Sequence record: PV611058
Length of the DNA: 64,000 bases
Source of the DNA: Escherichia phage WPEC3
Strand: one strand, 5' to 3'
Shown piece by piece: positions 62,210 to 64,000 of the stretch. Both the position numbers and the translations under genes were made by a program. Positions within the stretch are counted from its first letter, which is position 1. Each line of letters begins with the position of its first letter. The notes beneath the pieces were generated by a model. It was not told where the DNA came from. It did not search any database and was given only the letters and a program-made list of their open reading frames with translations.

Positions 62210-64000
62210 ATGGCAGTTTTTTCCAATTTAGAAGGGACCATGATGCCAACATTCAAGTTGGGTAAACGTGGTGCTTCTATTAATTTTGTAAACGATTCTG
62301 TCGCAATCAAAGACTTTTTAGGCGAAACGTTCCTACCTGTTAAGGTGGGAACTCCTAATGACGATGATTCCGCAGTAAACGTTAGGTATCTTGAAGATAA
62401 CCCAAATGCTTTATTTGGCGTACTTCCACCAACAAATGACATTGGTAAAAATAACAACACTTATTTTCAAGTTGATTCTGAGGGTATTGTTGATATCTTT
62501 GCAAAAACAAATGATGTTTGGGTAAAATCATTATACATTAATAAAAATGTCCTTTCCAGTGTTAACGGTGCTGATTATATCGGACTTATTACTGGAGGAA
62601 CACTTCAACAGGCACAGTTTTACATAACTCCAGAAGAGTTTGGTGCAAAAGGTGATGGTATCACTGATGACACGGCGGCGGTTAACGCATGTGCAGTTTA
62701 TGCTAAAGAACACCAAATCCAAATTCAAGCTGGTGGTAATTATCGTATCAGAACTGCTGTTTATTTGAATGATATTCAATGGTTTGGCGGTACAATCACT
62801 GGTAACGGTGGCACAATGGTATCAGTACTGAATAGTACAATCCAACAAGCAACATTAACAGGATGTTATTTAAAATTCTTTGGTGGTAATGGTAAATTTT
62901 ATTTTAATAAATTTATTAATATTACAAGTACTGCTGCATTTCTAATGCAAGGTATGACTGAATCAGGTACTATCGACTTCTGCTTTAATGAAATGACACA
63001 ATGTAAGTACGGTGTTCTTCAGCAAGGCACTGGTGAGAAAATGACCGTTGGGCGTTATTCATACAACCACATCCATGATATATATGGTGATGCAATTGAA
63101 TTGAACGTAGTCAACTCACATTACCCAGACGGATTTGTAATAGAAGGTAACTTGATTGAAAACGTAGATGGTACAAATGCACCAATTCCTCTTTCAAACT
63201 GGGGTATTGGTATCGGTGTTGCAGGTTCTGGTCCTTATGATGTGAATGCTGATGATTCACAATATGTAAAAAAATTCGTTATAAAAAATAACCGCTTGTA
63301 CAATGTCCGTCAATGTATTCACGTTGAGTTGGGTAAAGACTTTAAAATTCTCAATAATGAAGTTTATCCATCAACGTTGGTATCAATTGGTACTGGTTTG
63401 ACAACCGCTGGTGTAATTACTTATGGTTCTGTTGATTTTATTATTGATGGCCTATCTGGGCATCTATTAAATGATCCATCAGTAACTAACCGTATGGTTT
63501 CTATTAACTGGGGCGTAACATCTGGTAAATTTGCTGGTCCTCCACGAAACTTTAAATTATGTAATCTCCACATTCCTGAGTCGTCTATTATTGTGTATAC
63601 TTCAGGCTCTGATAATTGGCTAAATACTACTGAACTTTCTAATATTACATGTAGTAGAATTCAATGGCGTGGATTGCCGTCATCTTCCAAGTTTAATAAT
63701 ATCAGTACTAAAGAACTTGATGTTATTGGACAACACCTTGCAACTGAAGGTGAAGGAGGGGGCTTATATACTCGCTCTAAATATACATATACCAACTGGA
63801 CTAATTGTGTTGTTCAAGATGATTGTAACATATCAAAATATAGTTTCTCAAGAATGTATGTTGACCGTATTGACCAATCATCTAATAACTTTAAAGTAAC
63901 CACTGCAATTGATGGAACGGGTCATCGTGGACCTGTAGTAATACCTGTAGTTGAACAGTATTACGTGCCTTATGATGTTTTTCCTGGTGGGAGATATTTC
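62210..64000 (+). CDS. tailspike/depolymerase-like protein with pectate-lyase-type beta-helix motif, 3' end outside window
   Basis: Open frame from ATG 62210 (RBS AGAGGG) to the window edge, 597 codons; motif FGAKGDGITDDTAAVNA; not in the supplied ORF track because it has no stop in the window. Confidence 0.6.
   Translation, partial: MAVFSNLEGTMMPTFKLGKRGASINFVNDSVAIKDFLGETFLPVKVGTPNDDDSAVNVRYLEDNPNALFGVLPPTNDIGKNNNTYFQVDSEGIVDIFAKTNDVWVKSLYINKNVLSSVNGADYIGLITGGTLQQAQFYITPEEFGAKGDGITDDTAAVNACAVYAKEHQIQIQAGGNYRIRTAVYLNDIQWFGGTITGNGGTMVSVLNSTIQQATLTGCYLKFFGGNGKFYFNKFINITSTAAFLMQGMTESGTIDFCFNEMTQCKYGVLQQGTGEKMTVGRYSYNHIHDIYGDAIELNVVNSHYPDGFVIEGNLIENVDGTNAPIPLSNWGIGIGVAGSGPYDVNADDSQYVKKFVIKNNRLYNVRQCIHVELGKDFKILNNEVYPSTLVSIGTGLTTAGVITYGSVDFIIDGLSGHLLNDPSVTNRMVSINWGVTSGKFAGPPRNFKLCNLHIPESSIIVYTSGSDNWLNTTELSNITCSRIQWRGLPSSSKFNNISTKELDVIGQHLATEGEGGGLYTRSKYTYTNWTNCVVQDDCNISKYSFSRMYVDRIDQSSNNFKVTTAIDGTGHRGPVVIPVVEQYYVPYDVFPGGRYF

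What the first reader, a model, noticed from the sequence alone, without database searches (positions are those of the whole stretch)
62210..64000. Unannotated partial tailspike with pectate-lyase-type beta-helix (putative depolymerase)
A 597-codon open frame not in the supplied ORF track (it has no stop in the window) contains FGAKGDGITDDTAAVNA, the hallmark N-terminal motif of pectate-lyase-superfamily beta-helix tailspikes and polysaccharide depolymerases. This suggests a capsule or LPS-degrading receptor-binding protein, which would determine host range.
Basis: partly seen in the sequence, partly recalled or inferred. Interest (0 to 1): 0.5.

Follow-up and report, generated by a model that had tools for sequence, protein, structure and literature searches.

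The report
Jumbo-phage colanic acid-degrading tailspike gene
The open frame is real and is the first 84% of an already annotated enzyme of giant E. coli phages that cuts the slime polysaccharide colanic acid, so the finding is correct but ordinary.

Summary
Observation confirmed. An ATG at 62210, with a Shine-Dalgarno site and an in-frame TAA just upstream, opens 597 stop-free codons to the window end. FGAKGDGITDDTAAVNA is at aa 144-160.

The window is an Asteriusvirus jumbo coliphage, 99.9% nt identical to Escherichia phage WPEC5. The frame is the first 597 of 713 aa of WPEC5's annotated 'colanic acid-degrading protein', with identical amino acids.

It is 86% identical to the PBECO4 colanic-acid-degrading protein. 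It is 57% identical to phi92-type colanidase tailspikes (PDB 6E0V: phmmer E 1e-190, model TM 0.95). It is 33% identical to the phage NST1 colanic acid hydrolase.

The architecture is modular:
- aa 1-104: an adaptor paralogous to the N-terminus of the next gene.
- aa ~140-560: a right-handed beta-helix with family-invariant D294, E297, H371 and E373, also present in host WcaM.
- aa 598-713: a C-terminal beta domain, outside the window.

Most likely function: a virion-borne glycosidase that strips colanic acid so the phage reaches its receptors. Literature reports the phi92 enzyme as a hydrolase, not a lyase. Virion attachment in this genus is inferred, not shown.

Novelty: already known. Interest: low.

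The parts
62198..62201 (+). Shine-Dalgarno GAGG, 8 nt before the start codon. The upstream tail-protein gene ends at 62195, so the two genes are probably co-transcribed (inferred).
   Evidence: Sequence read. No terminator-like site on the + strand between the genes.
62210..64000 (+). Colanidase (colanic acid-degrading tailspike) gene, codons 1-597 of 713. The 3' end, 116 codons plus the stop, lies beyond the window.
   Evidence: open frame. (amino acids identical to WPEC5 CDS0401, 713 aa). (6E0V, E 1e-190). (PHROG 6117, E 1e-202). (86% identity to the PBECO4 protein). (dN/dS 0.076).
62210..62521 (+). N-terminal adaptor module, aa 1-104, presumed to attach the protein to the virion. It is paralogous to the N-terminus of the next gene downstream (gp572-type virion structural protein) and of its homologues in other jumbo-phage genera.
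   Evidence: 41% identity over 110 aligned positions, E 3e-23. 35-41% identity to Muenster_300, 121Q gp572 and pEa49_227. Not covered by 6E0V or by the matching part of PHROG 6117. Low pLDDT in the monomer model. Its docking partner is unknown.
62495..62626 (+). Neck or linker, aa 96-139. Similarity to phi92-type colanidases begins at aa 96, so this is the junction between the adaptor and the enzyme module.
   Evidence: Alignments start at aa 96. pLDDT is 49-64 here.
62627..63889 (+). Right-handed parallel beta-helix, aa ~140-560, the catalytic and polysaccharide-binding body.
   Evidence: AlphaFold2 model built with a 45-sequence alignment, pLDDT mostly above 90. Foldseek top hit 6E0V, E 6e-61, target TM 0.95; the other hits are tailspikes, epimerases and glycanases with beta-helix folds.
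62639..62689 (+). It is the N-terminal cap of the beta-helix.
   Evidence: position. Sub-threshold matches to PF12708 and PF12218 at this place. Motif absent from the NST1 homologue.
63086..63112 (+). GDAIELNVV motif, which holds family-invariant D294 and E297 (candidate catalytic carboxylates; inferred).
   Evidence: Invariant in 45 homologues. Conserved in E. coli K-12 WcaM as GDAIEWNV. Positions.
63200..63238 (+). WGIGIGVAGSGPY motif. W331 to G336 and G339 are invariant; probably part of the substrate groove (inferred).
63261..63267 (+). A7 homopolymer inside the coding frame. The public record vB_Ec-M-J has A8 here, which splits the gene into two annotated 'colanidase tailspike' CDSs.
63308..63328 (+). 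RQCIHVE motif, which holds invariant Q368, H371 and E373 (candidate catalytic or substrate-binding residues; inferred).
61068..62195 (+). Upstream neighbour: a 375-aa tail protein (PHROG 13565). Its phAPEC6 orthologue gp253 was detected in virions. Context only, but a possible partner of the tailspike.
   Evidence: PHROG 13565, E 2e-213. (annotated start). (gp253 in the mass-spectrometry list, 65.6% coverage).

Best explanation
The frame encodes the first 597 of 713 residues of the colanidase tailspike of an Asteriusvirus (121Q/PBECO4-like) jumbo coliphage. The proposed mechanism is given below, with each step marked as shown or inferred.

1. The gene sits in the baseplate and tail-fibre block and is probably co-transcribed with the upstream tail-protein gene (inferred).
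2. The protein is modular. An N-terminal adaptor of about 100 aa is paralogous to the N-terminus of the neighbouring gp572-type structural protein (shown by sequence) and presumably docks the protein on the tail (inferred).
3. Residues ~140-560 form a right-handed parallel beta-helix, followed by a C-terminal beta domain. The fold superposes on the solved phi92 gp150 colanidase (shown by homology and by the model). It probably assembles as a homotrimer, as tailspikes do (inferred).
4. The beta-helix binds colanic acid and cleaves its backbone as an endo-glycosidase. Activity is shown in the literature for homologues only: phi92 gp150 at 57% identity and NST1 CAE at 33%. For the 86%-identical PBECO4 protein, only the title and a one-line citation of the activity paper could be seen. 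The invariant residues D294, E297, H371 and E373 are the candidate catalytic centre (inferred).
5. Removing the Rcs-induced colanic acid slime lets the virion reach its true outer-membrane or LPS receptors. This would counter mucoid phage resistance rather than select particular serotypes (inferred from the homologue literature).
For: - Open frame with a Shine-Dalgarno site.
- 99.9% nt identity to WPEC5. The 597 aa are identical to its annotated 713-aa 'colanic acid-degrading protein'.
- phmmer against the PDB: 6E0V, phi92 gp150, E 1e-190 over aa 96-597.
- PHROG 6117 'colanic acid degradation', E 1e-202.
- Identities: 86% to the PBECO4 protein, 57% to the phi92-like alia gp031 over 617 aa, 33% to NST1 CAE, E 3e-76.
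- The AlphaFold2 model has pLDDT 82. Its best PDB match is 'colanidase tailspike protein gp150 of phage Phi92', target TM 0.95.
- dN/dS against 121Q is 0.076.
- Invariant D294, E297, Q368, H371, E373 and W331 in 45 homologues. They are also present in host WcaM.
- Literature on activity: phi92 gp150 hydrolyses colanic acid (Xu et al. 2025, as cited in PMC13450770). The NST1 enzyme was purified and degrades the colanic acid capsule (PMC9143390). The PBECO4 gene is linked to Kim et al. 2015, AEM 81:900 (cited in PMC10059673).
- Tail-module context.
- N-terminal paralogy with a structural protein.
Against: - The last 116 codons are not in the window, so intactness in this genome is not proven.
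- No activity or virion-location data exist for this exact protein.
- In the phAPEC6 virion proteome the neighbours gp253 and gp256 were detected, but the orthologue (gp254 by position) is not among the 62 listed proteins. That ORF is not annotated in the public record either.
- PHROGs files the family under 'moron/auxiliary', not 'tail'.
- In the 2026 phi92 cryo-EM study the predicted gp150 structure did not fit the density of fibre II, the fibre it had been speculated to form.
- The N-terminal module is modelled with low confidence.
- The catalytic residues are inferred from conservation only.
Confidence: 0.88

Rival explanations
1. A soluble colanic acid depolymerase that is not part of the virion. 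It would be made late, released at lysis, and clear slime around the plaque for the progeny phage.
For: The orthologue is absent from the 62 virion proteins of phAPEC6, while its neighbours gp253 and gp256 were detected. PHROG 6117 is categorised as 'moron, auxiliary metabolic gene'.
Against: It carries an N-terminal module of about 100 aa that is shared with the gp572-type virion structural protein. That module would be pointless in a free enzyme. The gene lies inside the tail and baseplate block, 14 nt after a tail-protein gene. Relatives carry classical virion-anchor domains (P22 head-binding, T7 tail-fibre N-terminus, TSP1/gp66 N-terminus, tail-collar) in front of the same beta-helix. The phAPEC6 ORF is not annotated in the public record; whether it was in the paper's mass-spectrometry search set is unknown. 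Low copy number could also explain non-detection.
Confidence: 0.08
2. A polysaccharide lyase (beta-elimination), as 'pectate-lyase-type' would suggest, acting on the glucuronic acid-containing side chain or on another acidic polymer.
For: Weak matches to PF12708, the pectate-lyase-like model (E 0.0038 and 0.00058). Some distant beta-helix structural neighbours are lyases or epimerases.
Against: The Pfam scores are below the gathering cutoff. The close homologue phi92 gp150 is reported to hydrolyse the Glc-Fuc backbone linkage, and the NST1 enzyme is described and used as a hydrolase. The lyase and epimerase structural hits have only 10-13% identity and TM of about 0.3.
Confidence: 0.03
3. A receptor-binding spike that has lost catalysis and only binds colanic acid, or a gene that is decaying in this genome.
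For: One near-identical record has the gene split by an extra A in the A7 tract. The CMSTMSU record shows it in five pieces. The 3' end cannot be seen in the window.
Against: All family-invariant residues are intact. dN/dS is 0.076. The frame is intact in the window and full length in WPEC5, 121Q, PBECO4 and phAPEC6. The two disrupted records are most simply explained by homopolymer sequencing errors.
Confidence: 0.02

Closest known systems
Colanic acid-degrading protein of Asteriusvirus jumbo coliphages (WPEC5 CDS0401, BF17 ORF313, PBECO4 AGC35227, 121Q gp573)
   Same: Same gene at the same locus. It is 100% identical over 597 aa to WPEC5, 99.7% to BF17 (P0001), and 86% to PBECO4 and 121Q. 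The length is 713 aa and the flanking genes are the same.
   Different: Nothing of substance. The window copy lacks its last 116 codons only because the window ends. The WPEC5-type and PBECO4-type copies differ by 14% in amino acids, and more in the N-terminal module (77% identity) than in the enzyme body (88%).
Phage phi92 gp150 colanidase tailspike (PDB 6E0V/6E0W; Justusliebigvirus)
   Same: Beta-helix and C-terminal domain are homologous from aa 96 to the end: 57% identity to the phi92-like alia gp031, E 1e-190 against the 6E0V sequence, model against structure TM 0.95. The invariant motifs are shared (alignment).
   Different: The N-terminal part is unrelated. Phi92-type proteins are 804 aa with an N-terminus of about 190 aa (precomputed PF26208). 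This one has a 104-aa jumbo-phage adaptor.
Phage NST1 colanic acid-degrading enzyme (CAE, GenBank HM214492)
   Same: Homologous over 636 aligned positions that cover the beta-helix and C-terminal domain (33% identity, E 3e-76). It has the same GD.IE.NV, NWGIGIG and RQ.H.E motifs. It has been purified and shown to degrade colanic acid (PMC9143390).
Escherichia coli WcaM (b2043), last gene of the colanic acid (wca) cluster
   Same: The beta-helix core is homologous: hhalign probability 99.9%, E 9e-34 over 327 columns. The motifs GDAIEWNV, NWGIGIGLAG and CRQLIHVENGK are conserved. NCBIfam WcaM models hit at E 1e-26. This explains the 'colanic acid biosynthesis protein' label in several phage records.
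   Different: It is not an orthologue: 93 bits against an equivalog cutoff of about 800. WcaM is a 464-aa host protein with no phage adaptor and no phage C-terminal domain.
Classical beta-helix tailspikes (P22, Sf6, HK620, CBA120 TSPs, Klebsiella and Acinetobacter depolymerases)
   Same: Overall plan: a modular N-terminal anchor, a right-handed parallel beta-helix enzyme body and a C-terminal domain. Some relatives of this family even carry the P22 head-binding or T7 fibre N-terminal domain.
   Different: Only 7-13% identity and TM of 0.2-0.3. Different substrates (O-antigens, K-capsules).

Membership tests
Colanidase / colanic acid-degrading tailspike family (phi92 gp150, PBECO4 and NST1 CAE; PHROG 6117; Pfam PF27800) | Significant sequence similarity across the whole enzyme body to characterised members | tested here: met
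   6E0V sequence E 1e-190 over aa 96-597. PHROG 6117 E 1e-202. PBECO4 protein 86%. NST1 CAE 33%, E 3e-76. PF27800 is precomputed on all 45 full-size homologues.
Colanidase / colanic acid-degrading tailspike family (phi92 gp150, PBECO4 and NST1 CAE; PHROG 6117; Pfam PF27800) | Right-handed parallel beta-helix fold that superposes on the solved colanidase | tested here: met
   AlphaFold2 with a 45-sequence alignment: pLDDT 82, and above 90 over most of aa 140-560. Foldseek top hit 6E0V, E 6e-61, target TM 0.95. The model is of P0001, which matches the window protein at 595 of 597 residues. The single-sequence model failed.
Colanidase / colanic acid-degrading tailspike family (phi92 gp150, PBECO4 and NST1 CAE; PHROG 6117; Pfam PF27800) | Family-invariant acidic and polar residues present (candidate active site) | tested here: met
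   Q272, D294, E297, N299, W331, Q368, H371 and E373 are invariant in 45 sequences and present in the window protein. Their catalytic role was not established here.
Colanidase / colanic acid-degrading tailspike family (phi92 gp150, PBECO4 and NST1 CAE; PHROG 6117; Pfam PF27800) | Hydrolysis of colanic acid | not testable with these tools
   Known only for homologues, from the literature.
Colanidase / colanic acid-degrading tailspike family (phi92 gp150, PBECO4 and NST1 CAE; PHROG 6117; Pfam PF27800) | Homotrimeric spike | not tested
   Only a monomer was modelled. A trimer is assumed by analogy with tailspikes.
Colanidase / colanic acid-degrading tailspike family (phi92 gp150, PBECO4 and NST1 CAE; PHROG 6117; Pfam PF27800) | Physical attachment to the virion tail | tested here: inconclusive
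   For: the N-terminal module is shared with the gp572-type structural protein, and the gene lies in the tail gene block. Against: the orthologue is not in the phAPEC6 virion proteome list, and that ORF is unannotated in the public record.
Colanidase / colanic acid-degrading tailspike family (phi92 gp150, PBECO4 and NST1 CAE; PHROG 6117; Pfam PF27800) | Complete, uninterrupted gene | tested here: inconclusive
   597 codons are open in the window. The remaining 116 codons lie outside it. The gene is complete in WPEC5, 121Q, PBECO4 and phAPEC6.
Pectate lyase superfamily (Pfam PF12708, Pect-lyase_RHGA_epim) / polysaccharide lyases | Score at or above the Pfam gathering threshold | tested here: not met
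   17.5 bits for the window fragment and 20.2 bits for the full length, against a cutoff of 27. Only the N-cap region aa 143-243 matches.
Pectate lyase superfamily (Pfam PF12708, Pect-lyase_RHGA_epim) / polysaccharide lyases | Beta-elimination chemistry | not testable with these tools
   Homologues are reported as hydrolases.
WcaM (NCBIfam TIGR04004 / NF007517, equivalog) | Score at or above the equivalog cutoff | tested here: not met
   93-94 bits against cutoffs of 795 and 808. It is homologous in the beta-helix core but is not a WcaM orthologue, so the 'colanic acid biosynthesis protein' labels are mis-transfers.
Endosialidase N-terminal extension (Pfam PF12218) | Score at or above the Pfam gathering threshold | tested here: not met
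   16.1-16.4 bits against a cutoff of 26.3.

The most novel reading that the evidence does not exclude
The Asteriusvirus colanidase is a lineage-specific chimera. A duplicated copy of the N-terminal adaptor of the neighbouring gp572-type structural protein was fused, at about aa 96-104, to a horizontally acquired beta-helix. That beta-helix shares ancestry and the same invariant D/E/H/E centre with the host's own colanic acid cluster protein WcaM. If so, WcaM would itself be a colanic acid glycanase, and phages would be using a relative of the host's own processing enzyme. A more speculative add-on is that slippage at the A7 tract (63261-63267) switches the spike on and off. The evidence does not exclude this, but sequencing error explains it more simply.
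Probability: 0.4. Interest if true: 0.3.

Novelty: already known. Interest (0 to 1): 0.12.

Why it matters
Colanic acid overproduction (mucoidy, Rcs activation) is a common route to broad phage resistance in E. coli. A virion-borne colanidase is a ready counter-measure, and it is also a useful reagent for removing biofilm or colanic acid and for making oligosaccharides.

This copy adds nothing new. The identical protein is already deposited and annotated. An 86% orthologue has a published activity study that could not be read here, and a 57% homologue has a crystal structure.

The practical value of the check is in annotation:
- The frame should be called as a partial colanidase tailspike gene.
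- It should not be called a 'pectate lyase'.
- It should not be called a 'colanic acid biosynthesis protein'.

Tried and rejected
- Single-sequence AlphaFold2 of the 597-aa fragment gave pLDDT 37.6 and was discarded. The alignment-based model replaced it.
- The local Pfam-A copy gave only sub-threshold hits, PF12708 and PF12218. The family model PF27800 is seen only as a precomputed label, so its name and cutoff could not be checked.
- The promoter and terminator scan of 60400-64000 was no better than shuffled sequence and says nothing about transcription.
- A PHROG scan of the N-terminal 110 aa gave only phrog_4302, E 0.0012, function unknown. The adaptor's fold stayed at low confidence, so no fold search was tried on it.
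- Three primary papers are not in the held library and are cited only through other papers or from memory: Schwarzer et al. 2012 (phi92), Kim et al. 2015 (PBECO4 CAE) and Xu et al. 2025 (gp150 enzymology).
- I asked whether WPEC5 CDS0403 (over 1500 aa, also labelled 'colanic acid-degrading protein') is a second colanidase. tblastn with the full colanidase finds no similarity in the part held, L001:10484-15101, so that label looks unsupported.
- I rejected the idea that the split gene in vB_Ec-M-J reflects biology. It is a single extra A in a homopolymer.
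Full report
**1. Observation**

Translating window 62210-64000 on the + strand gives 597 sense codons with no stop.
- The frame begins at an ATG. An in-frame TAA lies immediately before it (62207-62209), and a GAGG Shine-Dalgarno site lies at 62198-62201.
- The preceding gene ends at 62195, only 14 nt upstream.
- The quoted peptide FGAKGDGITDDTAAVNA is present at aa 144-160, nt 62639-62689.
- With the window's AT-rich composition, one given frame staying open for 597 codons has a probability of about 1e-18.
- The ORF lister omits the frame only because it skips ORFs that run off the end of the source.

**2. Identity of the window and the gene**

Megablast of 60900-64000 finds 35 phage records, all jumbo coliphages or Salmonella phages. 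The annotated ones belong to the genus Asteriusvirus. Six records are at least 99% identical, with Escherichia phage WPEC5 best at 99.9%. About 22 records of the 121Q/PBECO4 type are about 80% identical.

In WPEC5 the frame is CDS0401, 'colanic acid-degrading protein', 713 aa. Its first 597 residues are identical to the window protein, and the DNA differs at three synonymous sites. So the window holds 84% of the gene, and the missing part is 116 codons.

Other records label the same gene differently:
- 'colanidase tailspike'
- 'tailspike protein'
- 'colanic acid degradation'
- 'colanic acid biosynthesis protein', which is a mis-transfer (see section 5)

Against the 121Q orthologue gp573 (86% aa identity), dN/dS is 0.076. 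It is 0.09 in the N-terminal 104 codons and 0.07 in the rest. This is a protein-coding gene under purifying selection.

**3. Family and fold**

Sequence evidence:
- PHROGs: family 6117 'colanic acid degradation', E 1e-202, matching aa 94-597.
- PDB sequences: 6E0V/6E0W, 'Bacteriophage Phi92 gp150', E 1e-190 over aa 96-597.
- Pairwise identities: 86% to the PBECO4 'putative colanic acid degrading protein', 57% over 617 aa to the phi92-like alia gp031, and 33% over 636 aligned positions to the phage NST1 colanic acid-degrading enzyme, E 3e-76.

Structure evidence:
- A single-sequence AlphaFold2 run failed, with pLDDT 37.6.
- With a 45-sequence alignment of database homologues, the full-length model reached pLDDT 82, and above 90 over most of aa 140-713. 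The modelled sequence is P0001, which matches the window protein at 595 of 597 residues.
- The model shows a long run of short beta-strands, which is the beta-helix, over aa ~140-560, followed by a C-terminal beta domain at aa 598-713.
- Foldseek against the PDB puts 6E0V first: 'Apo crystal structure of the colanidase tailspike protein gp150 of Phage Phi92', E 6e-61, target TM 0.95.
- The next hits are far behind, with TM of about 0.2-0.35. They are beta-helix tailspikes, alginate epimerases or lyases, and glucanases.

That criterion is not triggered.

**4. What the family does, from literature on homologues**

[quoted passage not shown] 2025, as cited in PMC13450770). A review lists it as a colanidase tailspike, citing Schwarzer et al. 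2012 (PMC5380687).
- *NST1 enzyme (HM214492).* It was purified and shown to break down the colanic acid capsule and to lower the polymer's molecular weight (PMC9143390).
- *PBECO4 gene.* PMC10059673 ties it to Kim et al. [quoted passage not shown] I could not read that paper. From my own memory, the purified PBECO4 enzyme let phage T7 infect a mucoid resistant mutant.

The enzymology is therefore hydrolytic. 'Pectate-lyase-type' is correct for the fold class only. The Pfam pectate-lyase-like model PF12708 scores 17.5-20.2 bits against a cutoff of 27 and covers only the N-cap.

**5. Conserved centre and the WcaM link**

In the 45-sequence alignment the invariant residues include Q272, D294, E297, N299, W331-G336, Q368, H371 and E373. 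They sit in the motifs GDAIELNVV, WGIGIGVAGSGPY and RQCIHVE.

The link to host WcaM rests on two results:
- NCBIfam's two WcaM equivalog models hit aa 262-466 at E 1e-26, but with only 93 bits against cutoffs of about 800.
- A profile comparison of the family with E. coli K-12 WcaM (b2043) gives probability 99.9%, E 9e-34 over 327 columns. The motifs GDAIEWNV, NWGIGIGLAG and CRQLIHVENGK are conserved.

So the phage enzyme body is homologous to, but not orthologous with, the last gene of the host colanic acid cluster. This explains the 'biosynthesis protein' labels. I propose D294, E297 and E373, with H371, as the catalytic centre. This rests on conservation only and is untested.

**6. Modular build and origin**

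Similarity to phi92-type enzymes starts at aa 96. Residues 1-104 instead match the N-terminus of the next gene downstream, a protein of about 299 aa labelled 'virion structural protein' in 121Q and vB_Ec-M-J. The match is 41% identity, E 3e-23.

Related jumbo genera keep the same neighbourhood: NUDIX gene, three reverse-strand genes, then a tail protein of about 372 aa. After that they carry only the gp572-type gene and no colanidase:
- Klebsiella phage Muenster (Alcyoneusvirus) has a 115-aa protein.
- Erwinia phage pEa_SNUABM_49 (Eneladusvirus) has a 286-aa protein.

These gp572-type proteins are 49-61% identical to each other but only 35-41% identical to the colanidase N-terminus.

Across the wider family, the same beta-helix sits behind many different anchors:
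- P22 head-binding domain
- T7 tail-fibre N-terminus
- TSP1/gp66 N-terminal domain
- tail-collar domain
- PF26208 (seen only as a precomputed Pfam accession; its name was not shown)

The simplest reading is that the adaptor was duplicated and then fused to a horizontally moving enzyme module. This is inferred.

**7. Is it on the virion?**

This is the weakest link.

For:
- The adaptor paralogy described above.
- The gene's place in the tail and baseplate block. The window carries in order a 1153-aa protein that by position matches phAPEC6 gp244 (baseplate wedge), a 3333-aa virion protein, a gp15-like sheath completion protein, and the tail protein at 61068-62195.
- The anchor domains found on relatives.

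Against:
- The phAPEC6 virion proteome lists gp248, gp250c, gp251c, gp253 and gp256, but not the colanidase orthologue.
- The intact 713-aa ORF of phAPEC6 is not annotated in the public record. The locus tags jump from gp253 to gp256. I could not tell whether that ORF was in the search set used for the mass spectrometry.
- In phi92, a 2026 cryo-EM study found that the predicted gp150 structure fitted poorly into the density of fibre II, the fibre it had been speculated to form.

I keep 'tailspike' as the best reading, and give a soluble enzyme about 8%.

**8. Host range**

Colanic acid is made by most Enterobacteriaceae, mainly under stress or Rcs activation (established knowledge; introduction). 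The enzyme is therefore better seen as removing a general barrier and countering mucoid resistance than as a serotype-specific host-range determinant.

**9. Verdict**

It can be sharpened to 'colanidase tailspike, N-terminal 84%'. The gene is already known: an identical protein is deposited and annotated, a close orthologue has a published activity study, and a homologue has a solved structure. Interest is low.

The only mildly new points are the adaptor-duplication chimera and the conserved centre shared with WcaM.

Noticed in passing
window 3592-3691: A run of exactly 100 N, either an assembly gap or masking, lies inside the 287-aa ORF at 3262-4125 (-).
   Followed up: no
window 63261-63267; L002:8362-8369: An A7 tract lies inside the colanidase frame. 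The record vB_Ec-M-J has A8 here, and its gene is therefore annotated as two 'colanidase tailspike' CDSs. In CMSTMSU the same gene appears in five pieces. This is most likely homopolymer sequencing error, not biology.
   Followed up: yes
L005:7312-9453 and 9470-10366 (phAPEC6, MK817115): The intact 713-aa colanidase ORF and the 298-aa ORF after it have no CDS in the public phAPEC6 record. The locus tags jump from gp253 to gp256. Neither protein is in the published virion proteome list.
   Followed up: partly
L001:9467-10366 (WPEC5 CDS0402), just beyond the window end: The next gene (299 aa, PHROG 10468 'virion structural protein') shares its first ~110 aa with the colanidase N-terminus at 41% identity. 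Other jumbo genera (Muenster, pEa_SNUABM_49) have this gene at the syntenic locus but no colanidase.
   Followed up: yes
L001:10484-15101 (WPEC5 CDS0403): A protein of over 1500 aa is also labelled 'colanic acid-degrading protein' in WPEC5. The part held shows no tblastn similarity to the colanidase. Its counterparts in 121Q and vB_Ec-M-J are called long tail fibre or tail fiber protein. The label is probably wrong.
   Followed up: partly
public records BF17, fEgEco12, slurp01, Sharanji, UE-S1; L009:4503-5897 (E. coli wcaM): Several phage records call this gene 'colanic acid biosynthesis protein'. The cause is real but distant homology of the beta-helix core to host WcaM: hhalign E 9e-34, but NCBIfam 93 bits against a cutoff of about 800.
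   Followed up: yes
window 42951-52952 (+): A 3333-aa ORF lies next to the ClpA-like protease gene at 52986-55298 (-). By position and size it matches phAPEC6 gp245, a 381.9-kDa protein found in virions. It was not examined further.
   Followed up: no
window 59843-60451 (-): This 202-aa ORF is labelled 'MutT/NUDIX hydrolase' in WPEC5 but 'hypothetical' in the other records. It matches only PHROG 11259, of unknown function. The genuine NUDIX gene is the 154-aa ORF at 58232-58696.
   Followed up: no
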